In this document: positions 13,895 to 31,424 of the stretch, piece by piece | How the letters are laid out: every line of letters begins with the position of its first letter | Numbering within the stretch: the stretch's first letter is position 1 | Assembly (NCBI GenBank): GCA_001784175.1 | Contig: MFPR01000040.1 | Coordinates: 44,955-108,954, forward strand | Source: Candidatus Lindowbacteria bacterium RIFCSPLOWO2_12_FULL_62_27 | Lineage (GTDB): Bacteria; Lindowbacteria; 2-12-FULL-62-27 | Reading direction: 5' to 3' | Length of the DNA stretch: 64,000 nt | Notes under the pieces: generated by a model | Databases searched by the model: none | What the model saw: only the letters and a program-made list of their open reading frames with translations | Told to the model about the DNA's origin: nothing | Program-made: the position numbers and the translations under genes

Positions 13895-14415
13895 AAAGCC
13901 GGAGATTTTGGATTTTGGATTTTGGATTTTGGATTTCAAACATTCCAAACATGATCTGGATCGTGCCGGCGCTCACGATCGGATGCGCCGCGCCGAAGGC
14001 CGATCTGCAGCGGCCCGACGTGACGATGCCCAAGCGCCTGGAAGTCGTCGGAGCGTCGGCGTCCGGCCAGGAGTCCGACGATGTGCGAGCGATGAATGCG
14101 TTCGACGGCGATGCGAAAACCCGCTGGTCGTCCCCGCATGCCGACCACCAGTGGCTGGTGGCGGATCTCGGGTCGGACCGCACCGTGATCGGTGTCAAGC
14201 TCGTGTGGGAGGCCGCGTTCGGAGAGGAGTATCGCGTGGAGGGATCCTTGAACAACGAGGATTGGTCCAAACTCGCAACGGTCCGGGGCGGGGACGGCGA
14301 GGAGGACCAGATCGAGTTTCGCCCGGCCAAGCTGCGGTACCTGCGGATCAACTGTGTCCGCCGCGGCACGGAGTATGGATTTTCCCTGTATGAGGTCCAA
14401 GTCTGGGGATTTTAA
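13891..14415 (+). CDS. small secreted/lipoprotein-like single F5/8 type C (discoidin) domain protein
   Basis: The ATG at 13891 overlaps the upstream stop (ATGA). N-terminus MKSRRFWILDFGFWISNIPNMIWIVPALTIGC (heptamer element plus signal/lipobox-like segment). Discoidin motifs NAFDGDAKTRWSS..HQWLVADLG..GFSLYEVQVWGF. Confidence 0.7.
   Translation: MKSRRFWILDFGFWISNIPNMIWIVPALTIGCAAPKADLQRPDVTMPKRLEVVGASASGQESDDVRAMNAFDGDAKTRWSSPHADHQWLVADLGSDRTVIGVKLVWEAAFGEEYRVEGSLNNEDWSKLATVRGGDGEEDQIEFRPAKLRYLRINCVRRGTEYGFSLYEVQVWGF
13904..13936. repeat. heptamer mini-element (GATTTTG)x4.7, opposite orientation, at codons 4-15 of CDS 13891..14415 (RFWILDFGFWI)
   Basis: gattttggattttggattttggattttggattt starts 10 nt after the start codon. 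Confidence 0.9.
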
Positions 14416-14431
14416 AAAACATGTGCGCCAT

Positions 14432-14543
14432 TCACCTCCTCTCCCCCCGCAGGGGGGAGAGGATTGAGGTGAGGGGGGTGGCCGGCGTCGATAAAATCCT
14501 GCCACCCTCACCCCAACCCTCTCCCGCCAGAGGCGGGAGAGGG
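14432..14543. repeat. two tandem GGGAGAGG-family hairpin elements in opposite orientations (CCTCTCCCCCC gca GGGGGGAGAGG, and CCCTCTCCCGCC aga GGCGGGAGAGGG preceded by CACCCTCACCCCAACC)
   Basis: They fill the 146-bp gap between CDS 13891..14415 and the ATG at 14562. They are also in frame with the ATG at 14421. Confidence 0.85.
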
Positions 14544-14561
14544 GGGACACAGTTGCGAAAC

Positions 14562-17500
14562 ATGATATTTTGGAGTCTGAGCTGTCTCCTCCTGTCATCG
14601 GCCACGGTCGCGGACGCGGTCGAGTCGCTCCGGAACGTGTCGCTGTCCGCCAAGCCAACCGCGTCTTCTCAGTTCGATGCCGCGTCGGGCCCGCGCAACG
14701 CCATCGATGCGTCGCGGCGATCCACCTGGATCCCCGCGACCGCCGGGTCAGCGCCTCCGGCCGGAGAGGAGTGGCTGCTCCTTGAATTCGACCGCGAGGA
14801 AAACCTGCGGCGCGCGGTCCTGAACTGGGAGTTTTCCCTCAAGGCGAACTGGCGCATCGAAATTTTGCGCGGCGGGATGTGGACCGAAGCGGCGCGCGGC
14901 GTCAAGGACGGAACCGCAACGCGGATCGTCGAACTTGGAGGAAAGCGCGCGGACAAGGTGAAGCTCGTCTGCTCGGGCGCCACGCCCATGGCCTGCTCGC
15001 TGGCGGACTTCCAAGTCTGGGCGGTCGAATCGGATGTGTTTGGCGGGACGTTGGAACCGGCGGCACCGGCGCCGCCAAAATCTGAACCGGCGAAACCCCA
15101 GCCGTCCGCACCAGTCCCTGTCTTCGTCCCCGTTCCGGCGCCACCCAAGCCTCCGAAACCCGCTCCTCCACCACCGGCCGTTCCGAAACGCGAACCGGCG
15201 CCGATCCTGTCCCGGGTTCAGGCTCCGTCCAAACTCCTCGCGCCCCCGCCGCCGGCCGCAAAGAAAGCGAGCGCGCCCAGCCCCAGCCCGATTTTGCCGA
15301 TCCCTTCTCCGGTTTCTCCCCCCTTTACAAGGGGGGATCAAGGGGGGTCCGGTCTCGGGTCACGGCCGCCGGCCGACGTTCGGCCGCATCTCACGACGCT
15401 TGTAGAATCGTTTGACAATATATTGGAAAGCGTGCCCTTGGGCGCCGCGCCGGTGGCGGAGGCGTCCGAAGGCTGCGTGATGCAGGGCGCCGTGACGGGT
15501 GGCGGCTGGGGCCGGGGCGGAAGGGGCGAGGCGTACCGGGCGCGGTTCGTGGTCGTGCCGGACGGCGTCGCGACGCTGAGCCAGAAATTGAAATCGTCGG
15601 CCCCGAGCGGATGGTCGGAACTCTCCTTCTGGGTCAGAGGGTCATGGGCGGCCGGCGCCCCGCTCGAAGTCGTTCTCGCGGACGACGCAAACCAACAGGC
15701 GGCCTTGGCGGCGCCCGGAACGGAAGGCGGCAGTGCGCTCTGGCGCCAGATTAAAATCCCAGCCGGCGCCGTCAAGAAAATCAATCGCGACCGCATCAAG
15801 TCCTATATCCTCCGGTTCACGCCGGCGCATCAGGCGGGAGAAGTCTACATCGACGACATTTATCTCCACGGCGGCGCCGCACCGGGGAAGCCCCGCTCCT
15901 CCGCGGCGGATCCAAAGAAGGCTTCCGCCTCCATCTCTCCAGAACCTCCGGCCTCTATCCCTGTTTCCGACCTCGATCCGCCAGAATCTAAAATCCAAAA
16001 TCCAAAATCCAAAATCTCAAATGTTTTACCGGAGGTTCGCCCCTTCACCTACGACCCCAAAGACCGGCAGGCGGTCCACGAGATGCTGTTGGCGGCCGCC
16101 ATGAACGACCCGAAAACATCGGAGGGCCTCTCGGACGACGAATTTCTTGATCTGGTCGAACGCCGCGCGTTTTTGTATTTCTGGTATGGCGCCAATCCCG
16201 AAAACGGGATCACGCTGGATGGCGCGAAAAACTGGAAACCGGACGATGACCTCGACTGGAATTCGATCGCGGCGGTCGGGTTCGGCCTCACCGCCATCTG
16301 CATCGGCGCCGAACGCGGGTGGATCTCCAAAGAGATGGCTTACGAGCGGTGCCGCGTGACGCTCGACGCCTACTTGAACAAAATACAGAACAACCACGGG
16401 TTTTATTATCATTTCACCAATCGCAAGGGCATGAACGACCGCAATACCGAGCTTTCGTCGATCGACTCCCTCCTCATGTTTTGCGGGATGCTCTTCGCCG
16501 CTGAGTATTTCAAGAGCACGGAGGTCGAGAAAATGGCCCGGCAGATTTTTGAGCGGGTCGACTGGCGGTGGATGCACGACAACCGTAAGTTCGCGTCAAT
16601 GGCGGTGGACCCCGGCGGTAAATTTAATCCCGCAAGCTGGGACCGGCACTGCGAAGGGCAGATCCTGTCCATCCTCGAACTCGGGCATCCCCAAAACATG
16701 CCGACAGACCTCTGGTTCGACATGCCGGAACAATACGGCACATATCGGGGGTACCGCAGCCTCAACCAGGGGCCGCTCTTTACGTTTCAGTTTCCGTCCA
16801 ACTGGATCGATTTCAGGGACCGCAACGACGGGGCCGTCAATTTCTGGGAGAACGGGATCGAAGCGACGCTGGCCAACCGCTTTTACGCCATTGAAAAAAT
16901 GCCTGAACGCAAGGGGTACGGCCCGAACTCGTGGGGATTCACCGCCGGCGATTTCCCCGGCGGATACCATGCGTTTGCCGCTCCGCCCTCTTATCCGGGC
17001 GAGGACGGCACCGTCACGATCAACGCGGCGGGCGGATCTGTCATATTCACGCCGCATCTGTCCACCCAGGCGCTCCGATGGATGTACGACAACCTGCACG
17101 ACAAAGTCTGGGGCAAGTACGGGTTTACGGACGGATACAACCTCGACAAGAACTGGTCCTGCGACCGCGTGATCGGGATTGGCACAGGACCCGTTCTCCT
17201 CTCCATTGAAAATCACCGCACCGGATTCGTCTGGAAATATTTCATGCAGAACGACTATGTCAAACGCGGCATGGAACGCGTTGGCTTTAAGGACGAGCCG
17301 CGCCGGACCGCCAAAGCCCGGCCGCTGGACCTTGCCGGATACTGGAAATGGAAACCCGGCGACAACAAAACGTGGAGCAAGCCCGAGGTCGACGACTCCG
17401 GCTGGCGCGACATGTACGCGCCCGACAAGTGGGAAGTACAGCTCACGCAGGACGGCGACCGCAAGATGGCCGAGTACGACGGGTTCGGCTGGTACCGCCG

Positions 17501-17867
17501 CCGCTTCACCGTGCCGCTGGATACGTGGGAATCCTGGAAAGGTCAGGACCTGTTTTTCCACGCCGGCGCGATCGACGACGCCGACGAGGTCTTCCTGAAC
17601 GGCGAGAAGATCGGTTCGACCGGATCGATGTCCGCCGGGTCAGCGTCTCCGACGCCCCAAGTGTCGGCGTCTCCGACGCCGACCGGCGGGGAGAGCGCTT
17701 GGGAAAAACCGCGCAAGTACGCAGTCCCGCGCAAGCTCGTCAAGGTCGGCGAAGACAACGTGATCGCCGTGCGTGTCTTCGACGCCGCCGGCGGCGGCGG
17801 CCTCTGGATGCGCCCGGTCGAGCTGGGCCCGTTCCTGCCGCTCGATTTCAAACCCTGGAAGCTATAA
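14562..17867 (+). CDS. secreted multidomain glycoside hydrolase: discoidin-like domain, Pro-rich linkers, CBM-like domain, GH144-like (alpha/alpha)6 catalytic domain and a C-terminal jelly-roll domain
   Basis: Signal peptide MIFWSLSCLLLSSATVADA at the ATG at 14562. An in-frame ATG at 14421 would add a 47-aa extension made entirely of two hairpin repeat elements, and this start remains possible. Catalytic motifs LSDDEFLDLVERRAFLYFWYG and IENHRTGFVWKYFMQ. An 80-residue P/A/K-rich linker. In-frame PKSKIQN linker, CCCCCCTT/AAGGGGGG hairpin and GSASPTPQVSASPTP element. Confidence 0.75.
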   Translation: MIFWSLSCLLLSSATVADAVESLRNVSLSAKPTASSQFDAASGPRNAIDASRRSTWIPATAGSAPPAGEEWLLLEFDREENLRRAVLNWEFSLKANWRIEILRGGMWTEAARGVKDGTATRIVELGGKRADKVKLVCSGATPMACSLADFQVWAVESDVFGGTLEPAAPAPPKSEPAKPQPSAPVPVFVPVPAPPKPPKPAPPPPAVPKREPAPILSRVQAPSKLLAPPPPAAKKASAPSPSPILPIPSPVSPPFTRGDQGGSGLGSRPPADVRPHLTTLVESFDNILESVPLGAAPVAEASEGCVMQGAVTGGGWGRGGRGEAYRARFVVVPDGVATLSQKLKSSAPSGWSELSFWVRGSWAAGAPLEVVLADDANQQAALAAPGTEGGSALWRQIKIPAGAVKKINRDRIKSYILRFTPAHQAGEVYIDDIYLHGGAAPGKPRSSAADPKKASASISPEPPASIPVSDLDPPESKIQNPKSKISNVLPEVRPFTYDPKDRQAVHEMLLAAAMNDPKTSEGLSDDEFLDLVERRAFLYFWYGANPENGITLDGAKNWKPDDDLDWNSIAAVGFGLTAICIGAERGWISKEMAYERCRVTLDAYLNKIQNNHGFYYHFTNRKGMNDRNTELSSIDSLLMFCGMLFAAEYFKSTEVEKMARQIFERVDWRWMHDNRKFASMAVDPGGKFNPASWDRHCEGQILSILELGHPQNMPTDLWFDMPEQYGTYRGYRSLNQGPLFTFQFPSNWIDFRDRNDGAVNFWENGIEATLANRFYAIEKMPERKGYGPNSWGFTAGDFPGGYHAFAAPPSYPGEDGTVTINAAGGSVIFTPHLSTQALRWMYDNLHDKVWGKYGFTDGYNLDKNWSCDRVIGIGTGPVLLSIENHRTGFVWKYFMQNDYVKRGMERVGFKDEPRRTAKARPLDLAGYWKWKPGDNKTWSKPEVDDSGWRDMYAPDKWEVQLTQDGDRKMAEYDGFGWYRRRFTVPLDTWESWKGQDLFFHAGAIDDADEVFLNGEKIGSTGSMSAGSASPTPQVSASPTPTGGESAWEKPRKYAVPRKLVKVGEDNVIAVRVFDAAGGGGLWMRPVELGPFLPLDFKPWKL
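14743..14764. repeat. partial copy (5' 22 nt) of the second element family, in frame as ..TAGSAPPAGE..
   Basis: ccgggtcagcgcctccggccgg. Confidence 0.6.
15316..15350. repeat. variant hairpin element CCCCCCTT tac AAGGGGGG plus ATCAAGGGGGGTCC, in frame (..SPPFTRGDQGGSG..)
   Basis: An 8-bp perfect stem inside the Pro-rich linker of CDS 14562..17867. Confidence 0.7.
15985..16016. repeat. heptamer mini-element (CCAAAAT)x4 (first unit CTAAAAT), in frame as a ..PPESKIQNPKSKIS.. linker
   Basis: Inside CDS 14562..17867, between the Pro-rich region and the catalytic domain. Confidence 0.9.
17636..17684. repeat. second intragenic element family, in frame as ..GSASPTPQVSASPTPT.., interrupting a jelly-roll domain relative to its paralogs
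   Basis: Paralogous domains have ..TGRFPPNYETAW.. or ..TGEFPPSTGGGATW.. where this copy has TGSMSAGSASPTPQVSASPTPTGGESAW. Confidence 0.8.
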
Positions 17868-17870
17868 ATC

Positions 17871-18407
17871 GTGGAACCGAAAACTTGGGGCGTGAGCGTG
17901 ATTGTTGCGCTCCTCATGAACATCCTGGGTCTTGGCGCCGGGCTTGAGCCGCCCCGGTATGAGATGTCACTCGAAGGGCAGTGGAAGCTGTCGGCGGGGG
18001 ACAACTACGAATGGAAATCGCCCGAGTTCAATGATGAGAGCTGGAAAAACGCGCAGGTGCCCGCCGCTTGGGAGTCCCAGGGGCTGACCGATTACAACGG
18101 ATACGGCTGGTACCGCTACACGTTCGTCGTTCCCAAAGAGTGGGAAAAAACGGCGCGTGGGTTCATCCTCGACGCGGGACAGATCGACGACGAGGACATC
18201 ACGTTCGTGAACGGCCATGACGTCGGCTCCTCCTCGGGCTGGGACGTGTCCCGGTCCTACGGCGTCCCCAAATCTCTCATCAAGTTCGGCGAAAAAAATG
18301 TGATCGCCATCCGCGTCTACGACCGCACCGGCGGCGGCGGGATCCACAAAGGCCCGGTGAAGCTACGCAGCGGCGTCGTCGGCCGGTTCGACGTCGAAGG
18401 CTATTGA
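17871..18407 (+). CDS. small secreted stand-alone jelly-roll (GH2-N-like sugar-binding) domain protein, paralog 1
   Basis: 178 aa. Signal peptide, then ..KSPEFNDESWKNAQVPAAWESQGLTDYNGYGWYRYTFVVP..ILDAGQIDDEDITFVNG..IAIRVYDRTGGGG. About 75% identical to the product of 19468..20001. Confidence 0.7.
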   Translation: MEPKTWGVSVIVALLMNILGLGAGLEPPRYEMSLEGQWKLSAGDNYEWKSPEFNDESWKNAQVPAAWESQGLTDYNGYGWYRYTFVVPKEWEKTARGFILDAGQIDDEDITFVNGHDVGSSSGWDVSRSYGVPKSLIKFGEKNVIAIRVYDRTGGGGIHKGPVKLRSGVVGRFDVEGY

Positions 18408-18507
18408 TGTTTGGATTTCCCGTCAGTCCTTGGGTGTGGAGATAGATCAATCGTTTCGATCGTTTCTGAACACAAGTTCAGAAAAATAAAGTAGGAGGTG
18501 ATTCCAG

Positions 18508-19341
18508 ATGAGAGTAGTTATTTGTTGTCTTATGCTTGTTGCAGTTTTATCCGTGACAGCGTTTGCGGTCGATGTATTCTACGACGATGTATTAATTTCA
18601 GGTTCAACAGGATTTAACGCACCTGGAGAAACTGCCACTTTGTACCTAGGAGATTTCAATAACAGAGTGAATGCTGTTTGGGGATCTGGTTTGCGTTTTT
18701 CCGCATACAATGCGGAAGACCTACTTGTGTTAAATGAAGTAACGGGCAATGTGGGTATCGGGACAGTCTCTCCACAACATAAAATTCATGTTTTCGATGA
18801 CACCAATCCCCGAATTGAGATCGAGGCCAAGTCGGGTATCGTCCCGCTCAGTTCCGAATTGAACCTTGTCACACAACAAGGGGACAGCCCCGCAAAATTT
18901 GTCAATCTCTTTGCAGACGAGCAAGGGAAATTCGGCATTTGGACCGGAGGGCCGGGTGGTGCAGGCTCCACAAAGCTGACTTTGACCTCACAGGGGGACC
19001 TAGATGTTACAGGAAAGATCAACAGCGGGAGTAAAGGCTTGGTCTACTCCACGACAACAGGTTTGAAGAAAATGGTGACTACATCCGTCAGCGTCAACAC
19101 AAGTATTTCAGGTGGCTCCTCGGGTGGCGCTCCTGCGACTGTGTCCTTTAATTTCTCTGAATCGTTTTCAGGAACACCTGTCGCTTGGGTTGGAGATATC
19201 ACTGCTGGATTACCAAGTTTTTTCATTTTCACTCTCAAAGATGTCACCAGTACCGGTGGAACGCTCTCTATATCGAATCCAACATCTAGCTCCGCAACGT
19301 GTAATGTGACCATAAGAATCGTGGCGTTGGGTTCAGAGTGA
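18508..19341 (+). CDS. secreted tail-fibre-like protein with a C-terminal H-type-lectin-like domain (low-GC gene)
   Basis: Shine-Dalgarno-like AGGAGG 8 nt upstream. Signal peptide MRVVICCLMLVAVLSVTAFA. Motif GNVGIGTVSPQHKIHV, typical of tail-fibre-like proteins. The C-terminus ..VSFNFSESFSGTPVAWVGDIT..IFTLKDVTSTGGTL..CNVTIRIVALG fits an H-type lectin pattern. GC content is clearly below the surrounding genes. Confidence 0.55.
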   Translation: MRVVICCLMLVAVLSVTAFAVDVFYDDVLISGSTGFNAPGETATLYLGDFNNRVNAVWGSGLRFSAYNAEDLLVLNEVTGNVGIGTVSPQHKIHVFDDTNPRIEIEAKSGIVPLSSELNLVTQQGDSPAKFVNLFADEQGKFGIWTGGPGGAGSTKLTLTSQGDLDVTGKINSGSKGLVYSTTTGLKKMVTTSVSVNTSISGGSSGGAPATVSFNFSESFSGTPVAWVGDITAGLPSFFIFTLKDVTSTGGTLSISNPTSSSATCNVTIRIVALGSE

Positions 19342-19393
19342 AGCATTCCACATATTATTGATAGCTGTTAGAGCGTTTGGTTTGCCTTAAATT

Positions 19394-19424
19394 ATCCCTC
19401 TCCCGTCCTATGCGGGAGAGGGAT
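19394..19424. repeat. GGGAGAGG-family hairpin (ATCCCTCTCCCG tcctatg CGGGAGAGGGAT), intergenic, terminator-like
   Basis: A 12-bp perfect stem between the lectin-like gene and paralog 2; followed by AAAAGGGG rather than a T-run. Confidence 0.7.
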
Positions 19425-19467
19425 AAAAGGGGAATGGATATGACAAGAAGGGAGGGACTTTATAGAT

Positions 19468-20001
19468 ATGGCGCCAAAAACTTGTGGTATTGGTGTAATT
19501 GTTTCGCTTCTGATCAGTATTCTCGGATTAGGAACCACCTTTGAGCAACCGAAATTCGAGATTGGCTTGGAAGGACAGTGGTTGTTGTCGGCAGGGGACA
19601 ATTACGAATGGAAGTTGCCCGAGTTTCATGCCGAGGGCTGGAAGACCACGCAGGTGCCTGCCGCGTGGGAGTCCCAAGGACTGACCGATTACAACGGGCA
19701 TGGCTGGTACCTGTACACCTTTGTCGTCCCCAAAGAGTGGGAGAAAACAGCCCGCGAGTTTATCCTCGACATGGGCCAGATTGACAACGAAGATGTCACG
19801 TATGTAAACGGCCAAGACGTCGGTTCTACCAGCGGCTGGAACGTACTCCGTTCCTACGGGATACCGAAACCCCTTGTGAAATTCGGAGAAAAAAACGTCA
19901 TCGTGGTCCGCATCTACGACCGCACAAGCGGCGGCATTCTTCGGGGTCCGATCAAACTCCGCAGCGGCGGCGTTGGCCGATTCGACGTCGAAGGCTATTA
20001 A
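19468..20001 (+). CDS. small secreted stand-alone jelly-roll domain protein, paralog 2 (lower GC than paralog 1)
   Basis: 177 aa, co-linear with the 17871..18407 product (..EWKLPEFHAEGWKTTQVPAAWESQGLTDYNGHGWYLYTFVVP..). Shine-Dalgarno-like AAGGGAGGG upstream. Confidence 0.7.
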   Translation: MAPKTCGIGVIVSLLISILGLGTTFEQPKFEIGLEGQWLLSAGDNYEWKLPEFHAEGWKTTQVPAAWESQGLTDYNGHGWYLYTFVVPKEWEKTAREFILDMGQIDNEDVTYVNGQDVGSTSGWNVLRSYGIPKPLVKFGEKNVIVVRIYDRTSGGILRGPIKLRSGGVGRFDVEGY

Positions 20002-20026
20002 AATCAAAGCCGACAATTCCAAAACG

Positions 20027-22426
20027 TTGCCTCCCTGCAACAAATTTCTGGTTGTGTCTCTCGCGCTGGTCCTTTCGGCCATCGGCGTTCTCCCGGACCC
20101 TGCCCGGGCAGACTACCGGGAAGTGTTTGACATCAGTGGCAACCACGTTTTCGCTGGTGAAGAACTCCTACGGATGGAGGGTACGTCTACGACCGGTCCA
20201 GGGTCTGGTGCGTTTGATTTTGTCAATGACCAGCGTCTGTACCGGGACTGGGGTGCAACGGTCAACGTCACGGAATGGGTCAACAATATGCAGTACAATC
20301 TCGATTTTGGCCGTGTCGGTACATGGTTCACGCCGCTGACCCTTCACAAGGAACGGTTCCGGCCCGGATACGCGAATAAGTTATACGACCGCTGGTGGGA
20401 CCAGCGCACCGTGCGGTTCCGGCTGTCCAAGGCCGACCGGGAAACCACCATGCTGTTCGCCAAGACCGCGAACGCCAACGACGACGATGAGTGGTGGGGA
20501 AACACCGCCGCGTACGACAACATCGACATCGACCGCTACTTTTTCGCGTTCCGCCACCGCTTCAACCTCGCCGGCCAGACGCTCGGGTTTTCCTTCGCCA
20601 ATGAGCATTTCTCATCCTTTAAAGGCGGCGGGATCGACCTCGAATCGCCTCTGCAGGGCGACATCCCGGACGATACACCGGTGGTCATCGCGGTGCTCGT
20701 CCGGGATGATTCGCCGCTGGACAAGGACGGCAATACCGACCAGGCCGGCGCCGCCGTGTACAACATCAGAACCTTCGTGGATGGCGCGGAGGACGCCTCC
20801 TTGGCGATCACCAACGGCGATCCCGCGGGCGCCAATACCGTGCGGTACGGCAATTTCATCGAGTCGGCCGACCGCGTTGAGATGATCGGTCCGACGTCCA
20901 CCGGTTTCTCGCACTTTGTGGTCTTCTATTTCCTGCCCCCCACCACCGCCAAATCCGTGAAATTCTTCATCGATGTGGCCGGCGATTACAACATCATCGC
21001 CGCGCCCATCTCTCTGGCCGATTTCAACGGCCGAAGCCTCACCCCGTTCAGCCTGCCGTTTCTCAAGACCACGCGCGCGAAAGGGAACATCCGCGATAAC
21101 TCGAACCGGCAGACCGTTGAGGTGTCGGTCAACAAATTGACTGGCCAGAGCGTCTTCGGCATCGATCTCCATGGGCTTGTCCCCTGGGTCAACGTCGCCT
21201 TTAACGCCGAAATCGCGCGTTCGTTTCGGTACGGCAAATATCCCGTCCAGAAGGGCATCCAGACCTCGGAACACGCCGATGCCCTCTATCTGGAGCTTTC
21301 AAGGGATTTCGGCAAGGTCCTCATGGTCACCAAGGCCTGGGATTTCGATCTCGACTACGACGCATCCTTCGCCGTGGAGGACAACGACGACCGCGACGAT
21401 CAGCCGGATGTCGTCGATTACTACACGTCGAATCTGCCGGGCATCGACCGCAACAACGAGAGCGGCCCGGATTACGAGGAGGACTGGCTGCTCTTTACGG
21501 TCGACCCGCCCGTGTTTCTGGAGGGCGTCGATTACAACAACAACGACGTGCTCGACAACCTCGAAAACGACGCCAAGCCGGACTACCCGAACGGCTGGAT
21601 CGTCGGCACGCGCGGGTTCCACAGCACCCTCGCATGGAAGCCGGTGGCGGGGCTTCGGCTGACGGGCGGGTACCGGGACGAGAAGCGGGCCGTCGATGAA
21701 ACCTCCAACCGCCTGCATCACGCCCGGGCCCGGTATTCGTTCGGCCTCCCCGGCGGCGACGCCGTCCTGCGTTACGATTTCAAACGCGCGAAAGACACGA
21801 TCAACAACGACCTCGTGACGATCCCGTACGATTACGCCCAGCGCACGGAAAACCAGACGGACACCTTGGTGTTTCGCGACGCCATTCGCCAGCAGGCCGA
21901 CGTCACCCTGAATTTCCGGCCGGTCGAAAAACTGCCGATCACCGCGCGATACGCGCACGTGTTCCAGCGGCGGAAATACAACACGAGCATCGTCAACCAG
22001 GGCATCGCGATTCTGCGCGGGCAGTACGAGAACTGGCATCCGTTCCGGAGCGTCGGGTTTCTCGCCGACTGGCAAATCCTGCCGCTGTTCAAATTCCAGC
22101 GTGAATTTTCGTTTTCGGAGGCGGCCCAGAAACGCACCCACCTCTCCGACTTCTTCACCCAGTCCTTCGGAATCGAGGCCATCCGGAAGCTTTCGGACAA
22201 GACCAAGTTTTTCATGGGACACCAGATCCAGAGCCAGTCGAATTTCCTGTCGCAGACCGACTATGACCGGGGCGTGACGGCCTTCCAGCTTGTTCACAAG
22301 AACCGGTTCCGGGACAAGGAGGTTGTCATCACCACCGGCGTGAACATCATCTCCAAACGAAGCGAAAACGCCGCCGACAACCTCGAAACGATCTTCTCGT
22401 ATTTCAGGTCGTACTTCCAATGGTAA
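20027..22426 (+). CDS. predicted outer-membrane beta-barrel protein (porin-like), D/N-rich
   Basis: The TTG start at 20027 is chosen to avoid an overlap with the upstream gene; the in-frame ATG at 19973 is the alternative. Signal peptide ..KFLVVSLALVLSAIGVLPDPARA. Alternating hydrophobic beta-strand pattern and a C-terminal aromatic end ..FSYFRSYFQW, typical of OM barrels. Confidence 0.5.
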   Translation: MPPCNKFLVVSLALVLSAIGVLPDPARADYREVFDISGNHVFAGEELLRMEGTSTTGPGSGAFDFVNDQRLYRDWGATVNVTEWVNNMQYNLDFGRVGTWFTPLTLHKERFRPGYANKLYDRWWDQRTVRFRLSKADRETTMLFAKTANANDDDEWWGNTAAYDNIDIDRYFFAFRHRFNLAGQTLGFSFANEHFSSFKGGGIDLESPLQGDIPDDTPVVIAVLVRDDSPLDKDGNTDQAGAAVYNIRTFVDGAEDASLAITNGDPAGANTVRYGNFIESADRVEMIGPTSTGFSHFVVFYFLPPTTAKSVKFFIDVAGDYNIIAAPISLADFNGRSLTPFSLPFLKTTRAKGNIRDNSNRQTVEVSVNKLTGQSVFGIDLHGLVPWVNVAFNAEIARSFRYGKYPVQKGIQTSEHADALYLELSRDFGKVLMVTKAWDFDLDYDASFAVEDNDDRDDQPDVVDYYTSNLPGIDRNNESGPDYEEDWLLFTVDPPVFLEGVDYNNNDVLDNLENDAKPDYPNGWIVGTRGFHSTLAWKPVAGLRLTGGYRDEKRAVDETSNRLHHARARYSFGLPGGDAVLRYDFKRAKDTINNDLVTIPYDYAQRTENQTDTLVFRDAIRQQADVTLNFRPVEKLPITARYAHVFQRRKYNTSIVNQGIAILRGQYENWHPFRSVGFLADWQILPLFKFQREFSFSEAAQKRTHLSDFFTQSFGIEAIRKLSDKTKFFMGHQIQSQSNFLSQTDYDRGVTAFQLVHKNRFRDKEVVITTGVNIISKRSENAADNLETIFSYFRSYFQW

Positions 22427-25014
22427 CTATCCACCTCCTCTCCCCCCGCAGGGGGATGCGATGTTGGCCGGCCGTCCTTGTCCTCGCCTTGATGTGCATG
22501 TCTCCATCGGCGGTCCATGCGGCCGGGCTCATTGACAGTTTTGAAAATGACAATGCTCTTTCTGACGGTTCTGGCGCAGACGGTAAATGGGTTGTCGGAT
22601 CCGGGACTTATACGCTGACTTACGAATCGAACCGAACGTTTTTTTCGAAAGGCGCGATGCGTGTCGATTATAACAAGGCAGGCACGGCTTATACTTGGAT
22701 TGAAATTAAGGGTGTCGATACAAACATTGGCGCCAATTTCTCCAACGACACATTCATGACGGCTCGAGTTTTTGGCGCCGTCTCCATCCTGGCTAAATTC
22801 CGCGATGACGACTGTGAAAGTGATGTGCAGGTCGCCACGACTACGAATGCGACGGGATGGTCGCTTGTCACTTGGAAATATAATCCCAATGCACAGGTAG
22901 TTGGCTTATGTACCATCAATCCGAATAATATAAAAGATATGCTGTTCTTTGTGGCTCCGGGGGATACTGCCCCATCCGGAACCTTTTACATGGACAACCT
23001 CTGGCTCGGGTACGGCTATCCGAACGCCCCCGACACCGTGACCAACCTCATCGCCGTGCCGGGACCCAAAAACGGGCAGGCGCGCCTGAGCTGGACCGCG
23101 ATCGGGGACACGAACGGGCAGGACCGCGTCAAGCAGTATCTGATCCGGCAGAGCACGAGCACCATCACAGAGTCCGGGTTCAATTCCCTGACGGACCTGA
23201 CCGGTATTCCGGCGCCGTCGGCCGCCGGAACGCTCGATTCGATGATCGTGTCCGGCCTCACGGCCGGCCAGACCTATTATTTCGCCATCAAGGCGGTGGA
23301 TACGAACAGCCAGACCGACAGCCTGTCCAACGTGGCCCAGTCGGCCGCGCTGTCCTCCTCGGCCGGCAGCCTCGTCTTTGACGATTTCTCCGATGGATAC
23401 ACCAAGCCAAACGGATTCGGCAAGGACGTCGGCCAGTGGTCCAGCGGCGGCGCGACCATTTTCATCTCGACGGCCGCTCCCGCCAATTCGCTCGGCAACA
23501 TCGGCGGCGCGCTGGATATCACCTACAACCGAGGCACCGGCGAGTGCGGGTACTATTCCGTCTTGGGCGAAACGGACCTCTCCGCCTACAAGGGCATTTC
23601 TTTCTGGGCGCGCGGCGCCCTCGGTGGGGAGGAATTTCTGATCGGGTTGAAATCGGTTGTGAACGGCAAGGAATCGAAACTGCGCGCCCACGTCTATCTC
23701 AAGCAGGCGCGGATCACGGCGGCGTGGCAGAAAATCGTGATCCCGTTCGCCGCCTTTAACAAACTCGATCCCAGCGAGGTCGCCACGAGCGGGACGCCGA
23801 CCAATCCGCTGACGAAAATGGAAAACGTGTCGTTCACGTTCGGCACCCAGACGGCCTCCGCCTCCGGACAGGTCTTCATCGACGACATCGCGTTCGTGAA
23901 ATCCGTGCCGGTCGTCTTCCTCGAAAATTTCGACACCACGGCCGATCCGTCCGAAGGCACCCACGCGGCGGGCGGAAACGAGGGCGACCTCAATACGAAC
24001 AACGACGATCCCTTCATAGTGGAAAACGGACACGCCAAACTCACGTCGACCATCGCCAACCAGGGGGTATTTCTGACCCTGCTCCAGTTCGGCGACAGCA
24101 CCGGACTCGGGGACAAGACGACGCCCTTCATCGAGGCGACGCATATTTCCTTGTACGCGCGCGGCAACGTCGGCGGAGAATCGCTCGAGATCAACCTTCA
24201 GGACAAGTACAATCAAAGCCGGGCTGTGAACGTGCGGGACGTTCTCGGCACGGCCCTTCCCGCCGTCTGGACAAAAGTGTCGGTTCCGCTGATCCTGTTT
24301 CCCGGGGTCGACATGACGTTCATGGACGCCGTCCATATCCGTCTGGCCGAGGCCGGCAAGATCGCGTTCATCGATTCGATCGTCTTCGACGACAGCGCCA
24401 CGCCCACCGCGCCGTCCAATCTCCTCCTGAACGGCGTCCTCGCCACCGCCAACGCGCCCCTCACGACCCGCAACACCCTCAGCGTCACGGCCGACGACGG
24501 CGCCACGGACGTCAGCATGCAGGAGGTCCGCTTCGAGTACTCGACCACCGGCGGGTCGGACTGGAGCCTGATCGGTGTCGACCGAGACGTCGCCGATAAC
24601 ACGTACCAGGTAATCTGGGTCACCCGCAACATCGCGGGCGCCCCTTTCTACGCGGCTGTTCCCGTCAACCTCTCCTACCGCGCCGTCGCCGTGGACGTCG
24701 CGGGCAACACCACCGCCACGGCCGCGCTGGCGGCGTCCACGATCAACACGAGCAACGTGGTCGTCTATCCCAATCCCTACTATCCGTTGCAGGGCGGAAA
24801 AATGAAAATCACCAACCTGTCGACCGGCGCGACGGTCAATATCTACACGCTCTCGGGCGAGCTGGTTGTGCAGCTCCTGGATTCCGACAACGACGGCCAG
24901 GTCGACTGGACGGGCGTCAACAAGGGCGGCGACCGCGTCGCCAGCGGCCTGTACCTCTACGAGGCGATCCTCTCGGCGGGTAGAGAGCGCGGAAAGCTGG
25001 TTGTAATTAAATGA
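22420..25014 (+). CDS. secreted multidomain carbohydrate-binding protein (CBM-like modules and FN3) with a T9SS C-terminal sorting domain
   Basis: Signal peptide (alternative start at ATG 22456). FN3-like ..KQYLIRQS..GLTAGQTYYFAIKAVD. CBM-like module LVFDDFSDGY..QVFIDDIAFV. The C-terminus VVVYPNPYYPLQGGKMKITNLSTGATVNIYTLSGELV..WTGVNKGGDRVASGLYLYEA..KLVVIK matches the T9SS type-A CTD pattern. Confidence 0.7.
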   Translation: MVTIHLLSPRRGMRCWPAVLVLALMCMSPSAVHAAGLIDSFENDNALSDGSGADGKWVVGSGTYTLTYESNRTFFSKGAMRVDYNKAGTAYTWIEIKGVDTNIGANFSNDTFMTARVFGAVSILAKFRDDDCESDVQVATTTNATGWSLVTWKYNPNAQVVGLCTINPNNIKDMLFFVAPGDTAPSGTFYMDNLWLGYGYPNAPDTVTNLIAVPGPKNGQARLSWTAIGDTNGQDRVKQYLIRQSTSTITESGFNSLTDLTGIPAPSAAGTLDSMIVSGLTAGQTYYFAIKAVDTNSQTDSLSNVAQSAALSSSAGSLVFDDFSDGYTKPNGFGKDVGQWSSGGATIFISTAAPANSLGNIGGALDITYNRGTGECGYYSVLGETDLSAYKGISFWARGALGGEEFLIGLKSVVNGKESKLRAHVYLKQARITAAWQKIVIPFAAFNKLDPSEVATSGTPTNPLTKMENVSFTFGTQTASASGQVFIDDIAFVKSVPVVFLENFDTTADPSEGTHAAGGNEGDLNTNNDDPFIVENGHAKLTSTIANQGVFLTLLQFGDSTGLGDKTTPFIEATHISLYARGNVGGESLEINLQDKYNQSRAVNVRDVLGTALPAVWTKVSVPLILFPGVDMTFMDAVHIRLAEAGKIAFIDSIVFDDSATPTAPSNLLLNGVLATANAPLTTRNTLSVTADDGATDVSMQEVRFEYSTTGGSDWSLIGVDRDVADNTYQVIWVTRNIAGAPFYAAVPVNLSYRAVAVDVAGNTTATAALAASTINTSNVVVYPNPYYPLQGGKMKITNLSTGATVNIYTLSGELVVQLLDSDNDGQVDWTGVNKGGDRVASGLYLYEAILSAGRERGKLVVIK
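22432..22456. repeat. truncated 5' half of the hairpin element (25 nt identical to 14432-14456), ending at the ATG at 22456
   Basis: cacctcctctccccccgcaggggg is identical to the start of the copy at 14432. Confidence 0.75.
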
Positions 25015-31077: not shown

Positions 31078-31227
31078 GAACGTGTGAATAAATCCCTTAT
31101 CCACGAAGGAGCACGAAGGGGCACGAAGAAACATTTAGATAACATATTGAATATCTGGATTCCCTTCGTGTCAGCTTCGTGTCCCTTCGTGGATAAAAAG
31201 TGGTTTATTCAATTTTTTCACACGTTC
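31078..31227. repeat. 150-bp compound inverted repeat: outer arms GAACGTGTGAATAAA / TTTATTCA..TTCACACGTTC; inner arms each carry three direct CACGAAG(G) units (TCCACGAAGGAGCACGAAGGGGCACGAAG / CTTCGTGTCAGCTTCGTGTCCCTTCGTGGA)
   Basis: The arms are directly readable and about 85% complementary. It could be a six-half-site binding array, a MITE-like element or a structured RNA; the function is unknown. Confidence 0.8.
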
Positions 31228-31257
31228 TCACCGAACGGCGGAACTAAACAGCATAAT

Positions 31258-31275
31258 GCACATATAATTGTGCAT
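31258..31275. promoter_or_regulatory. NtrC-type enhancer-like dyad TGCACA-TATAAT-TGTGCA (perfect 6-bp arms)
   Basis: Resembles TGCACC-N5-GGTGCA upstream activating sequences of enhancer-binding proteins. It sits in the AT-rich intergenic region between the divergent genes 30375..30869 and 31495..34107. Confidence 0.4.
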
Positions 31276-31359
31276 ATAGCCTATATATCTGCCGTGAATA
31301 TGCAGTATGCACACATCATCAAGCGTGCTTTCACGATGGGCGCCCACTTTGGCGCATTC

Positions 31360-31375
31360 GAAACCTTAAGGTTTC
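31360..31375. promoter_or_regulatory. perfect 16-bp palindrome GAAACCTTAAGGTTTC
   Basis: Directly readable. Located between the NtrC-like dyad and the candidate sigma-54 promoter. Confidence 0.4.
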
Positions 31376-31424
31376 AAATGATTTGTGAAAATTCCACGTT
31401 TTAACAGTAAGCGCTTTCATCACC

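What the first reader, a model, noticed from the sequence alone, without database searches (positions are those of the whole stretch)
17871..20001. Low-GC insertion: tail-fibre-like H-type-lectin gene flanked by duplicated small secreted jelly-roll proteins
Two roughly 75%-identical 177-178-aa secreted proteins, each a single GH2-N-like sugar-binding jelly roll, bracket a clearly AT-richer gene. That gene's product has a GNVGIGT..K.HV tail-fibre-like motif and an H-type-lectin-like C-terminus. Paralog 2 shares the lower GC. The gap between paralog 1 and the lectin gene has direct repeats and a hairpin (TCTGAACACAAGTTCAGA). This looks like a horizontally acquired (phage-derived?) adhesin cassette that brought, or was captured next to, a copy of the jelly-roll gene. 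Possibly it is a lectin-adaptor pair for surface glycan recognition.
Basis: partly seen in the sequence, partly recalled or inferred. Interest (0 to 1): 0.6.

Follow-up and report, generated by a model that had tools for sequence, protein, structure and literature searches.

The report
Imported fibre-lectin gene between gene duplicates
A sugar-degradation gene cluster of an uncultured Lindowbacteria bacterium carries a foreign, AT-richer gene for a small secreted protein built like the tip of a phage tail fibre, lying between two diverged copies of a sugar-binding protein gene. It is a clear but fairly ordinary case of gene transfer plus duplication.

Summary
JR1 (17871-18407) and JR2 (19468-20001) are 75% identical GH2_N-type jelly-roll proteins. 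They flank a 277-aa gene (18508-19341) with strongly atypical composition: GC 0.47 and GC3 0.44, against a host GC3 of 0.80 (z about -7).

The window is a Candidatus Lindowbacteria MAG. A relative that is 67-72% identical (L010) has glycoamylase, one JR gene and the 817-aa gene, tightly packed. It has no 277-aa gene and no second JR copy, so the arrangement is lineage-specific.

The 277-aa protein has three parts:
- a Sec signal peptide;
- about 1.5-2 units of the GNVGIGT..P..K.HV fibre repeat. This repeat has 3656 homologues, many ending in S74/G2 chaperone domains, and it also occurs in 55 viral contigs;
- a C-terminal ~100-aa domain. Its confident model matches the R-pyocin fibre foot, AP22 gp53, Helix pomatia agglutinin and discoidin, which is the H-type-lectin fold. 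It scores below Pfam thresholds by sequence.

Phage origin is not shown, and no evidence supports a lectin-adaptor pairing. JR2 evolves about four times faster than JR1, with AT-biased changes, but stays under purifying selection.

Verdict: a new member of a known kind, namely a cellular, secreted, phage-fibre-like lectin. Interest is modest.

The parts
14421..17867 (+). Upstream host gene: 1148-aa secreted enzyme with a PF10091 'putative glucoamylase' domain and a C-terminal GH2_N-like jelly-roll domain (about 17325-17825) that is 37% identical to JR1
   Evidence: Pfam Glycoamylase E 1.5e-51 with weak GH2_N/BetaGal_ABD2 hits at aa 991-1119. tblastn of JR1 against the window. The orthologous C-terminus in L010 is 69% identical.
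17871..18407 (+). JR1: 178-aa stand-alone GH2_N-type jelly-roll protein with a conserved N-terminal hydrophobic segment. It has host-typical composition and a GTG start 3 nt after the upstream stop, so it is probably translationally coupled.
   Evidence: Pfam PF02837 35.4 bits against a cutoff of 28. GC3 0.80, z 0.0. 72% identical to the single JR of L010. The PDB profile search is led by the jelly-roll domain of sialate 9-O-acetylesterase 7kmm, E 1.9e-24, followed by GH2 N-terminal domains.
18408..19600 (.). Low-GC tract (GC 0.40-0.55): gap 1, the 277-aa gene, gap 2 and about the first 40 codons of JR2
   Evidence: 200-nt GC profile. Per-feature GC. GC3 of JR2 codons 1-30 is 0.37, against 0.70 in JR1.
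18408..18507 (+). Gap 1: weak AT-rich hairpin (18464-18485), a 9-nt tandem repeat, and a strong Shine-Dalgarno sequence AGGAGGTGA 6 nt before the ATG of the 277-aa gene
   Evidence: Sequence. Fold z -1.1, not significant. No promoter-like or terminator-like site falls in the gap. No Rfam match.
18508..19341 (+). 277-aa gene for a secreted mini-fibre with a lectin-fold tip. Its composition is foreign.
   Evidence: GC3 0.44, z -6.9; codon usage z -7.4. No Pfam, PHROG or NCBIfam hit. Homologues of both halves exist. The gene is absent at this site in L010.
18508..18567 (+). Sec-type signal peptide MRVVICCLMLVAVLSVTAFA|VD (residues 1-20)
   Evidence: Read from the translation: a positive n-region, a hydrophobic core and an A-F-A cleavage motif. 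pLDDT is below 50 for residues 1-25. No signal-peptide predictor was available.
18568..19002 (+). Fibre-stalk module (residues ~21-165): one complete ~70-aa unit ending in TGNVGIGTVSPQHKIHV (18742-18792), then a second, degenerate unit
   Evidence: Exhaustive phmmer found 3656 proteins at E<=1e-3, mostly long proteins with up to 29 matching stretches. Identity to five repeats of P0008 is 39-51%. Hits carry Peptidase_S74, Peptidase_G2 IMC or collagen repeats. 55 IMG/VR loci match, lying in ORFs of 591-3379 aa rich in GNVGIGT repeats.
19033..19338 (+). C-terminal ~100-aa beta-sandwich 'foot' domain (residues ~176-277) with the H-type-lectin / gp53-like fold
   Evidence: 45% identical to the extreme C-terminus of P0088. 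A small family, P0157-P0165, all end at the same ...A.G.E terminus. Domain model: pLDDT 81, pTM 0.70. Foldseek PDB: R1 pyocin fibre 6cxb TMq 0.56 / TMt 0.53, rmsd 3.0 A; HPA 2ce6 0.52 / 0.58; also discoidin II, SLL-2, LKA1 gp49, phi297 gp61 and AP22 gp53. BFVD hits are annotated 'H-type lectin domain' and 'gp53-like C-terminal domain'.
19342..19467 (+). Gap 2: perfect 14-15 bp hairpin TTATCCCTCTCCCG-N7-CGGGAGAGGGATAA (19392-19426), belonging to a dispersed host palindrome family. It is followed by a GGGAGGGA Shine-Dalgarno-like sequence and the ATG of JR2.
   Evidence: Inverted repeat I6. Fold z -3.6, with 0 of 200 shuffles as stable. Four copies of CCCTCTCCC-N-GGGAGAGGG occur in the window, against 0 expected.
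19468..20001 (+). JR2: 177-aa diverged paralog of JR1. It has its own ATG and SD, lower GC3 (0.64) and an accelerated, AT-biased substitution pattern, but it is still under purifying selection.
   Evidence: Pfam PF02837 33.3 bits. 47 GC>AT against 10 AT>GC JR2-specific changes. dN/dS about 0.11-0.14 against JR1 and L010. 17-19 unique amino-acid changes against 4 in JR1. Its 3' two-thirds and the downstream gene are collinear with L010 in one blastn HSP.
20027..22426 (+). Downstream host gene, the conserved neighbour of the JR gene: about 800-aa secreted protein of unknown family ending in ...YFRSYFQW. TTG at 20027 is the likely start, giving signal peptide ...PARA|DYREVF.
   Evidence: 67% identical to the gene directly after the single JR in L010. 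No Pfam, NCBIfam or PDB sequence match. The start is inferred from the sequence and the alignment with L010.

Best explanation
**What it is.** This is a lineage-specific rearrangement inside a same-strand glycan-degradation gene array of a Candidatus Lindowbacteria genome. The array encodes a rhamnosidase-like GH, a GH2, F5/8C lectin-domain proteins, a PF10091 glycoamylase, CBM30 proteins and a LacI regulator.

**Ancestral state.** It is preserved in a relative: glycoamylase, one small JR gene and the 817-aa gene, tightly packed. In the window's lineage the JR gene is present twice. About 1.1 kb of foreign, AT-richer DNA carrying a single gene sits exactly between the copies.

**What the foreign gene encodes.** The product is a Sec-exported mini-fibre. 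After the signal peptide come about 1.5-2 units of the widespread GNVGIGT..P..K.HV stalk repeat. Long cellular and phage fibres use this repeat, usually with an S74/G2 chaperone, which is absent here. The protein ends in a ~100-aa H-type-lectin-fold 'foot' of the kind found at the distal tip of R-pyocin fibres, AP22 gp53 and LKA1/phi297 tailspikes.

**How it probably works (inferred).** It trimerises like its relatives and binds a carbohydrate through the variable distal loops of the foot. It would then act as a soluble or envelope-associated lectin.

**Origin.** The donor was probably a low-GC bacterium. Homologues of the foot domain sit in Bacteroidota-like, 42%-GC, T9SS-bearing contexts.

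**The JR copies.** JR1 kept the ancestral coupled GTG start and host composition. JR2 gained its own ATG/SD inside the low-GC DNA and evolves about four times faster, with AT-biased changes, yet remains functional (dN/dS about 0.1).

**Shown:** the composition anomaly, absence in a relative, homology of both halves, the fold match, and purifying selection on both JR copies.

**Inferred:** trimerisation, sugar binding, cellular location, donor taxon, and the order of duplication and insertion.
For: - **Identity of the organism.** The names of P0003 and P0006 give it. Nine independent contigs from ENA, Logan and NCBI are at least 99.9% identical, so the arrangement is not an assembly artefact.
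- **Composition.**
- **Synteny.** L010 (Logan SRR22387949) has the glycoamylase C-terminus, then 8 nt, a 177-aa JR, then 6 nt, and the 817-aa homologue. Identities are 69/72/67%. A second relative contig (P0005, no DNA held) lists only one JR gene between a 1163-aa gene and a partial 253-aa gene. No 277-aa-like protein of that size appears among the best 150 exhaustive hits.
- **The gene is real.** It is an intact 277-codon ORF in 47%-GC DNA; my estimate of the chance of that is about 4e-7. It has the strong SD AGGAGGTGA, and both halves have homologues.
- **Stalk repeat.**
- **Foot fold.** Full-length model pLDDT is 80-95 over residues 180-277, and the domain model has pTM 0.70. The top 24 PDB hits are exactly the set that PMC6363177 defines as the foot / discoidin-like lectin fold: R1/R2 pyocin, AP22 gp53, LKA1, phi297, HPA, discoidin I/II and SLL-2. 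Faint Pfam hits of family members to H_lectin (E 0.023) and Gp53-like_C (E 0.035) point the same way.
- **Donor hint.** The P0159 contig L011 has GC 0.42 and a Por_Secre_tail neighbour.
- **JR evolution.**
Against: - **No direct functional evidence.** The sugar-binding residues of H-type lectins were not examined, and sequence-level membership in PF09458 or PF21882 is below threshold. Foldseek E-values are modest (4e-4 to 2e-2), and rmsd to HPA is 5.4 A.
- **Stalk model.** It is only moderately confident (pLDDT 57-80) and was built as a monomer, so trimerisation is untested.
- **Location.** The protein has no recognisable anchor, no T9SS C-terminal domain and no lipobox. In a diderm cell a Sec signal alone would leave it in the periplasm.
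- **Synteny sample.** Only one relative with DNA was available. Two JGI metagenome scans found nothing.
- **Local duplication is not proven.** dS is 1.34 for JR1-JR2, above the 0.88 for JR1-L010. The 5' and 3' thirds of JR1 are closer to L010 than to JR2. Polarised sites are 2 against 2.
- **Mobility.** No mobility gene or target-site repeat marks the insertion.
Confidence: 0.7

Rival explanations
1. The cassette [277-aa gene + JR2] arrived together from a lower-GC relative that already carried a JR-family gene. JR2 would then be a xenolog rather than a local duplicate. A central gene-conversion tract later made JR1 and JR2 alike.
For: JR2 has lower GC3 (0.64, z -3.1) and strongly GC>AT-biased unique changes (47 against 10). 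The low-GC tract runs into JR2's first ~40 codons, where GC3 is 0.37. There JR1 is 79% identical to L010 at DNA level but only 60% identical to JR2. Overall dS is 1.34 for JR1-JR2, above the 0.88 for JR1-L010. JR1 and JR2 are closest to each other only in codons 46-105.
Against: The protein NJ tree groups JR1 with JR2 at 88% bootstrap. The ten JR1=JR2 sites that differ from L010=P0005 are spread along the whole protein, not only in the centre. JR2's 3' part is collinear with the host 817-aa gene in a single HSP against L010. The stand-alone JR family is known only from this narrow group (5 hits among 5.8 billion proteins). The foot-domain homologues come from unrelated low-GC organisms. A compositional shift inflates dS.
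Confidence: 0.2
2. The JR1-277-JR2 arrangement is ancestral. Relatives lost the middle gene by homologous recombination between the two JR copies, which collapsed them into one.
For: Direct repeats 75% identical that flank 1.1 kb are a natural substrate for deletion. Only one relative with DNA was examined.
Against: The single JR of L010 is JR1-like along its whole length (DNA identity 0.73-0.81 to JR1 against 0.52-0.78 to JR2 in most windows), so it is not a JR1/JR2 chimera. The 277-aa gene's GC3 (0.44) shows no adaptation to a 0.80-GC3 genome, which argues against long residence. The closest relatives of its two halves lie outside this lineage.
Confidence: 0.1
3. The 277-aa gene is a decaying remnant of a prophage or tailocin tail-fibre gene and has no present function.
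For: The stalk repeat and foot fold are typical of phage and tailocin fibres. The gene is much shorter than its relatives (277 aa against 400-4800 aa).
Against: The ORF is intact, with a strong SD and a canonical Sec signal peptide, which virion fibres lack. No other phage gene lies nearby; the flanks are glycan-degradation genes. There is no PHROG hit, no match in 50,697 phage genomes and no viral-contig relative of the foot domain. Other short signal-peptide proteins built from the same repeat exist, for example P0057 at 241 aa. The sequence is identical in nine contigs from different samples.
Confidence: 0.07
4. The lectin and the flanking JR proteins form a functional lectin-adaptor complex for surface glycan recognition.
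For: The three genes are adjacent and on the same strand. All three products have N-terminal export signals and carbohydrate-binding-type folds.
Against: In L010 the JR gene sits tightly packed between the glycoamylase and the 817-aa gene with no lectin gene present. JR-like domains are common C-terminal appendages of the glycoside hydrolases in this window (seven copies), which suggests a CBM-like role tied to the enzymes. No homologue of the foot or stalk was seen next to a JR gene elsewhere. No co-variation or interaction data exist.
Confidence: 0.08

Closest known systems
Foot domain of R-type pyocin fibres (PDB 6cl5/6cxb/6cl6), AP22 gp53 (4mtm) and the C-terminal domains of the LKA1 gp49 and phi297 tailspikes
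   Same: A ~100-aa jelly-roll/beta-sandwich at the extreme C-terminus of a fibre. These are the best structural matches (TMq 0.55-0.57, rmsd 2.7-4.1 A, 11-21% identity). PMC6363177 assigns this domain to receptor (LPS sugar) binding through distal loops.
   Different: Here the domain sits on a 277-aa Sec-secreted protein in a glycan-degradation operon, not on a virion or tailocin fibre. There are no baseplate-attachment, head or shaft domains. By sequence it is unrelated at HMMER level.
H-type lectins (Pfam PF09458: Helix pomatia agglutinin, discoidin I/II C-terminal domain, SLL-2)
   Same: Same fold: HPA 2ce6 TMq 0.52 / TMt 0.58, discoidin II TMq 0.56, SLL-2 TMt 0.53, probability 1.00. One family member gives a faint H_lectin hit, E 0.023.
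   Different: Below Pfam thresholds. rmsd is 5.4 A. The GalNAc-binding residues and trimer interface were not examined. The domain is fused to a fibre stalk.
Bdellovibrio MAT (mosaic adhesive trimer) fibres, non-S74 subgroup (PMC10769870)
   Same: Cellular proteins bearing signal peptides. Each has a phage-tail-fibre-like stalk and an exchangeable adhesive tip of lectin-type fold. An S74-less subgroup exists.
   Different: MATs are about 600-1100 aa or longer and share a conserved ~130-aa N-terminal beta-rich domain, which was not tested here. Their solved tips have TNF-like or C-type-lectin folds, not the H-type fold. No sequence match to deposited MAT fragments was found. The organism here is not a known predator.
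Phage and cellular 'tail fiber domain-containing' proteins with the GNVGIGTxxPxxKLHV repeat and a Peptidase_S74 (endosialidase-chaperone) C-terminus
   Same: The stalk repeat is homologous: P0002 and P0029 carry S74, P0008 carries the G2 IMC. The same repeat occurs in giant ORFs on IMG/VR contigs.
   Different: Only about 1.5-2 repeat units, against 3-29. There is no S74/G2 chaperone domain. A lectin-fold tip forms the C-terminus instead.
GH2 N-terminal sugar-binding domain (PF02837) and the jelly-roll domain of sialate 9-O-acetylesterases (PDB 7kmm, 9ega) - for JR1/JR2
   Same: Above the Pfam gathering score. The profile hit to 7kmm residues 242-362 has E 1.9e-24.
   Different: JR1 and JR2 are stand-alone 178-aa proteins with an N-terminal hydrophobic segment and no catalytic domain. 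The stand-alone form is known from only about four lineages.

Membership tests
H-type lectin domain (Pfam PF09458) | Sequence match to the family HMM at the gathering score | tested here: not met
   The 277-aa protein has no Pfam hit at E<=0.1. Of 11 family members, one matches H_lectin at E 0.023.
H-type lectin domain (Pfam PF09458) | Beta-sandwich fold of Helix pomatia agglutinin / discoidin C-terminal domain | tested here: met
   Domain model pTM 0.70. HPA 2ce6 TMq 0.52 / TMt 0.58. H. aspersa agglutinin 0.50 / 0.56. Discoidin II TMq 0.56. SLL-2 TMt 0.53. All at probability 1.00.
H-type lectin domain (Pfam PF09458) | Trimer with sugar (GalNAc) sites formed by distal loops at protomer interfaces | not testable with these tools
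   Only monomer prediction was available. Ligand residues were not compared.
Gp53-like C-terminal / fibre 'foot' domain (Pfam PF21882; R-pyocin foot, PMC6363177) | Sequence match to PF21882 | tested here: not met
   Two of 11 family members match at best E 0.035. The window protein itself has no match.
Gp53-like C-terminal / fibre 'foot' domain (Pfam PF21882; R-pyocin foot, PMC6363177) | Foot fold located at the extreme C-terminus of a fibre | tested here: met
   6cxb TMq 0.56 / TMt 0.53, rmsd 3.0 A. 4mtm TMq 0.56. All 11 family members end at the same C-terminal ...A.G.E. BFVD hits are annotated gp53-like.
Phage tail fibre with intramolecular chaperone (Peptidase_S74 / G2 IMC) | GNVGIGT-type stalk repeats | tested here: met
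   3656 homologues. 39-51% identity to P0008 repeats. Present on viral contigs.
Phage tail fibre with intramolecular chaperone (Peptidase_S74 / G2 IMC) | C-terminal S74 or G2 chaperone-protease domain | tested here: not met
   No Pfam hit. The C-terminus is the foot domain.
Phage tail fibre with intramolecular chaperone (Peptidase_S74 / G2 IMC) | Encoded within a phage, prophage or tailocin gene cluster | tested here: not met
   The neighbours are glycan-degradation genes. No PHROG hit. No phage-genome match.
Bdellovibrio MAT fibres (PMC10769870) | Signal peptide, fibre stalk and an adhesive tip of lectin-type fold | tested here: met
   The signal peptide was read from the sequence. Stalk homology. 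Tip fold. Family description.
Bdellovibrio MAT fibres (PMC10769870) | Conserved ~130-aa beta-rich domain directly after the signal peptide | not tested
   No MAT N-terminal sequence was available for comparison. PDB sequence searches gave no MAT hit.
Glyco_hydro_2_N (PF02837) - JR1 and JR2 | HMM match above the gathering score | tested here: met
   35.4 and 33.3 bits against a cutoff of 28. PDB profile hits to GH2 N-terminal domains and esterase jelly rolls.
Horizontally acquired island | Atypical composition and codon usage | tested here: met
   GC3 z -6.9 and codon usage z -7.4 for the 277-aa gene.
Horizontally acquired island | Absent from the orthologous site in a relative | tested here: met
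   L010 has a single JR between orthologous flanks. This rests on one relative with DNA plus one gene table.
Horizontally acquired island | Mobility genes, tRNA target or flanking short direct repeats | tested here: not met
   The 1.15-kb tract holds only the one gene. The gaps of 100 and 126 nt hold no such features. tRNAs were not scanned.

The most novel reading that the evidence does not exclude
The 277-aa protein and its small C-terminal family (P0088, P0157-P0165) would define a previously undescribed bacterial branch of the H-type-lectin / fibre-foot fold. Cells, not phages, would use it as short secreted trimeric lectins. In this Lindowbacteria it would have been recruited into a polysaccharide-foraging operon, with the fast-evolving JR2 copy adapting as its partner. 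That would be an example of a phage-type receptor-binding tip repurposed for substrate or cell capture in a candidate phylum.
Probability: 0.1. Interest if true: 0.5.

Novelty: new member of a known kind. Interest (0 to 1): 0.3.

Why it matters
The locus is a clean, datable example of a single foreign gene landing exactly at the joint of a tandem duplication inside an operon of a barely studied candidate phylum.

It adds a divergent family to the H-type-lectin / fibre-foot fold: about ten members, with no Pfam model. It also shows that the GNVGIGT stalk module occurs in very short, signal-peptide-bearing proteins.

In practice, composition-trained gene callers can miss such genes. The gene table for the NCBI MAG contig lists no 277-aa gene although the DNA is identical.

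It does not open a new mechanism or resolve an open question.

Tried and rejected
- **Family and sequence searches of the 277-aa protein.** Pfam, PHROGs, NCBIfam and PDB sequence searches found nothing usable.
- **Word-indexed homologue search.** It returned only the protein itself and one weak S74 fibre. The exhaustive search was needed.
- **Looking up the near-identical variant P0001.** It is not on record as a called gene.
- **Apparent relative in the NCBI MAG.** Contig L001/L003 looked as if it lacked the gene. It is the same strain (99.9% identical) with a different gene call, so it is not a synteny control.
- **Extra synteny controls.** JGI metagenome scans with the JR profile and the 817-aa profile found nothing. 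The GTDB genome scan returned only distant (35-43%) JR-like domains in KSB1, Bacteroidia and Pirellulaceae.
- **Phage origin.** A viral-contig scan for the foot domain found nothing, and tblastn against phage genomes found nothing.
- **Campbell-type single-crossover integration.** I rejected it in its simple form because JR1's 3' end is host-like (GC3 0.83-0.90) and L010-like.
- **Import tract reaching into the 817-aa gene.** I rejected it because the reduced GC3 in that gene's first ~120 codons is shared with L010.
- **13-nt perfect inverted repeat (18422-18434 / 19673-19685).** It does not extend, and about 0.1 such matches are expected by chance, so I treat it as chance.
- **Gap-1 hairpin as a terminator or RNA element.** It is not significant, and there is no Rfam hit.
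- **Polarising the JR duplication with outgroups.** The result was uninformative, 2 sites against 2.
- **Population variation.** There is none in the region.

Full report
**Observation**

The ORF map shows a same-strand series:
- a 1148-aa gene (14421-17867);
- JR1 (17871-18407, 178 aa);
- a 277-aa gene (18508-19341);
- JR2 (19468-20001, 177 aa);
- an ~800-aa gene ending at 22426;
- an 864-aa gene.

JR1 and JR2 are 75% identical as proteins (E 5e-102) and about 75% identical as DNA. Both exceed Pfam's gathering score for Glyco_hydro_2_N. A profile of the family hits the jelly-roll domain of a sialate 9-O-acetylesterase (7kmm, E 1.9e-24) and many GH2 N-terminal domains.

The GC drop is real and sharp. 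GC is 0.645 in the last 200 nt of JR1 and falls to 0.40 just past its stop codon. It recovers to about 0.54 or more near 19600. GC3 is 0.80 for JR1, 0.44 for the 277-aa gene and 0.64 for JR2. Size-matched chunks of 13 host genes give 0.798 +/- 0.051 with a minimum of 0.653, so the z-scores are 0.0, -6.9 and -3.1. Codon-usage likelihood gives the same ranking.

The motif TGNVGIGTVSPQHKIHV is at residues 79-95. The gap-1 hairpin and short tandem repeat exist, but the gap does not fold better than shuffled sequence (z -1.1). Nothing there matches Rfam or a terminator pattern. It belongs to a dispersed palindrome family, CCCTCTCCC-N-GGGAGAGGG, with four copies in the window and none expected by chance.

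**Source and reliability**

JR1 is 100% identical to a protein of Candidatus Lindowbacteria MAGs from the Rifle aquifer. Nine contigs from ENA, Logan and NCBI assemblies carry the same region at 99.9% identity or better. None has a difference between 17871 and 20001. The arrangement is therefore not an assembly artefact, but these contigs are the same strain and give no comparative information.

The gene table for the NCBI MAG contig lacks the 277-aa gene and truncates JR2 although the DNA is identical. That is a gene-calling effect of the atypical composition.

**Synteny test**

A divergent relative, L010 (Logan SRR22387949), has the following order:
- the C-terminus of the glycoamylase (69% identity);
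- 8 nt of spacer;
- one 177-aa JR gene (72% identical to JR1, 65% to JR2);
- 6 nt of spacer;
- the homologue of the 817-aa gene (67% identity).

The region has normal GC of 0.58-0.62. At DNA level, window 17124-18405 aligns through the end of the L010 JR gene. Window 19594-22290 aligns from inside the same L010 JR gene into the downstream gene. Each window copy therefore keeps one orthologous flank.

A second relative (P0005) has a gene table with one JR gene between a 1163-aa gene and a partial 253-aa gene. No 277-aa-like protein of that length is among the best exhaustive hits. The three-gene state is therefore specific to the window's lineage, with the caveat that the sample of relatives is very small. 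Further scans for relatives failed.

**The 277-aa protein**

It has no match in Pfam, PHROGs, NCBIfam or PDB sequences. The word-indexed search found only itself and one weak Peptidase_S74 fibre.

*Stalk.* The exhaustive HMMER search found 3656 proteins at E<=1e-3. Nearly all are long (up to 4854 aa) with up to 29 matching stretches, so residues ~21-165 are one to two units of a widespread repeat. Against P0008 (E 1e-57), the segment DVLISGSTGFNAPGETATLYLGDFNNRVNAVWGSGLRFSAYNAEDLLVLNEVTGNVGIGT aligns at 39-51% identity to five successive repeats. Relatives carry Peptidase_S74, the Peptidase_G2 IMC domain or collagen repeats. Fifty-five IMG/VR contigs encode the repeat in ORFs of 591 to over 3379 aa full of GNVGIGTxSPxxKLHV units, some ending in S74-like sequence. 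Short versions with signal peptides also exist, for example P0057 at 241 aa.

*Foot domain.* One exhaustive hit, P0088, matched only residues 163-277, at 45% identity to its own extreme C-terminus. A profile search found nine more members. All end at the same ...A.G.E terminus. One lies on a 42%-GC contig with a T9SS-tailed neighbour.

AlphaFold2 models the C-terminal domain confidently: pLDDT 80-95 in the full-length model, and pLDDT 81 with pTM 0.70 for the domain alone. Foldseek against PDB returns, as its top 24 hits:
- R1/R2 pyocin fibres;
- Helix pomatia and H. aspersa agglutinins;
- SLL-2;
- discoidin I/II;
- LKA1 gp49 and phi297 gp61;
- the cyanophage Pam1 tailspike;
- AP22 gp53 and gp54.

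TMq is 0.42-0.57 and probability 0.93-1.00 for all except the Pam1 tailspike chain 7eea_B (TMq 0.39). All of these except the cyanophage Pam1 tailspike and AP22 gp54 are in the set that Salazar et al. (PMC6363177) describe as sharing the R-pyocin 'foot' / discoidin-like lectin jelly roll, in which variable distal loops bind sugars. BFVD hits include proteins annotated 'H-type lectin domain' and 'gp53-like C-terminal domain'. At sequence level only faint hits exist: H_lectin E 0.023 and Gp53-like_C E 0.035, in other family members. I therefore accept the fold assignment but not Pfam-level membership.

*Is it a real gene?* The N-terminus MRVVICCLMLVAVLSVTAFA|VD reads as a Sec signal peptide. A strong AGGAGGTGA lies 6 nt before the ATG. 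An intact 277-codon frame in 47%-GC DNA is very unlikely by chance; my estimate is about 4e-7.

**Phage origin**

The modules are shared between phages and cells, but nothing ties this gene to a phage:
- no PHROG hit;
- no tblastn match in 50,697 phage genomes;
- no viral-contig relative of the foot domain;
- no phage genes nearby;
- a signal peptide, which is a cellular trait.

The closest concept is the cellular, signal-peptide-bearing fibre with a mosaic lectin tip, as described for Bdellovibrio MAT proteins, including a subgroup without S74 (PMC10769870). Membership in that family was not testable.

**History of the two JR copies**

A protein NJ tree with outgroups groups JR1 with JR2 (88%) and L010-JR with P0005 (100%). 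The JR2 branch is about twice as long as the JR1 branch. JR2 has 17-19 unique amino-acid changes against 4 in JR1. It has 47 GC>AT against 10 AT>GC unique nucleotide changes. Both copies are constrained, with dN/dS about 0.11-0.2.

The signal is mosaic. In codons 1-45 and 106-177, JR1 is closer to L010 than to JR2. In codons 46-105, JR1 and JR2 are closest to each other. Overall dS for JR1-JR2 (1.34) exceeds that for JR1-L010 (0.88).

Two readings fit:
- a local tandem duplication with an accelerated, AT-drifting JR2. I prefer this reading, given the tree, the collinearity of both flanks and the narrow distribution of the family;
- a xenologous JR2 that came in with the lectin gene and later underwent conversion in the centre.

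A simple Campbell-type integration is unlikely because JR1's 3' end is host-like. The reduced GC3 at the 5' end of the 817-aa gene is shared with L010 and is not part of the import.

JR2 starts with its own ATG and SD inside the low-GC DNA. JR1 and the L010 gene use a GTG start a few nucleotides after the upstream stop.

**Context**

JR-like domains are a recurrent appendage in this cluster. tblastn finds seven copies in the window, including two at the end of the GH2 ORF and one at the end of the glycoamylase. The stand-alone JR is therefore best read as a free CBM-like module of the glycan-degradation machinery. Its conserved neighbours are the glycoamylase and the 817-aa protein, not the lectin. 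This undercuts the 'lectin-adaptor pair' idea, for which there is no positive evidence.

**Mechanism I commit to**

The 277-aa gene is a horizontally acquired, functional gene. It encodes a Sec-exported, probably trimeric mini-fibre whose H-type-lectin-fold foot binds a carbohydrate through its distal loops. It lies at the joint of a lineage-specific JR duplication. My confidence in the structural and evolutionary statement is about 0.7. For sugar binding as the function it is about 0.5-0.6, because that rests on inference from the fold family alone.

**Novelty and interest**

This is a new member of a known kind. It is a tidy example of single-gene transfer into an operon and of reuse of the fibre-foot fold by cells in a candidate phylum. 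It is not surprising to a specialist and does not address an open question. I score interest at 0.3.

Noticed in passing
window 9532-9563(-), 12916-12947(-), 13903-13934(+), 15986-16017(-), 26462-26493(+), 31505-31536(+), 34117-34141(+), 47511-47542(-): There are eight ~36-nt arrays of the heptamer GGATTTT (23 overlapping matches against 0.08 expected). They are stop-free in all six frames and all lie in frame within ORFs. In one orientation they encode ESKIQNPKSKIS at domain boundaries of four large secreted enzymes. In the other they encode (R/E)ILDF(G/R)FWILD directly after a start codon and before a signal peptide. The flanks share no similarity. Copy number does not vary in strain-level contigs. 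Candidate explanations are an in-frame mini-insertion element, a phase-variation tract or a linker cassette.
   Followed up: partly
window 1946-1971, 2715-2740, 14517-14543, 19396-19422: A dispersed perfect palindrome family, CCCTCTCCC-N8-9-GGGAGAGGG, resembling REP elements, has four copies against 0 expected. One copy forms the strong hairpin after the 277-aa gene. Another (14517) lies in the only stretch where contig L005 differs from the window (14453-14522).
   Followed up: partly
window 9968-10330, 12995-13399, 13433-13840, 17325-17825, 56627-57049: Five further GH2_N-like jelly-roll domains, 37-43% identical to JR1, occur in the window. Four of them are inside large ORFs (1086 aa; two in tandem at the end of the 1030-aa GH2 ORF; the end of the 1148-aa glycoamylase); the gene context of the fifth (56627-57049) was not checked. 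The stand-alone JR gene appears to be a freed copy of this module.
   Followed up: partly
window 31084-31404 and 35373-36835: Other low-GC patches (GC 0.41-0.49) hold orphan-looking ORFs. One is a 362-aa signal-peptide protein with a highly charged D/K-rich tail. These may be further foreign insertions in the same glycan-degradation region.
   Followed up: no
window 20027-22426: The ~800-aa protein that always follows the JR gene has no Pfam, NCBIfam or PDB sequence match. It has a signal peptide and ends in ...YFRSYFQW, an aromatic terminus reminiscent of outer-membrane beta-barrels. Its fold was not predicted.
   Followed up: partly
window 22420-25014: The 864-aa CBM30/fn3 protein carries a T9SS type-A C-terminal sorting domain (TIGR04183, 25.6 bits against a cutoff of 23, plus a PorZ-like tail). 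That is notable for a Lindowbacteria genome. Its first ~600 nt are also low in GC, at 0.47-0.51.
   Followed up: no
L003 (NCBI GCA_001782795.1 contig MFPQ01000037.1) 10638-11471: The gene table for this MAG contig has no 277-aa gene. It lists a 64-aa reverse-strand ORF instead and starts JR2 late (138 aa), although the DNA is identical to the window. Contigs from other assemblies do call the gene.
   Followed up: yes
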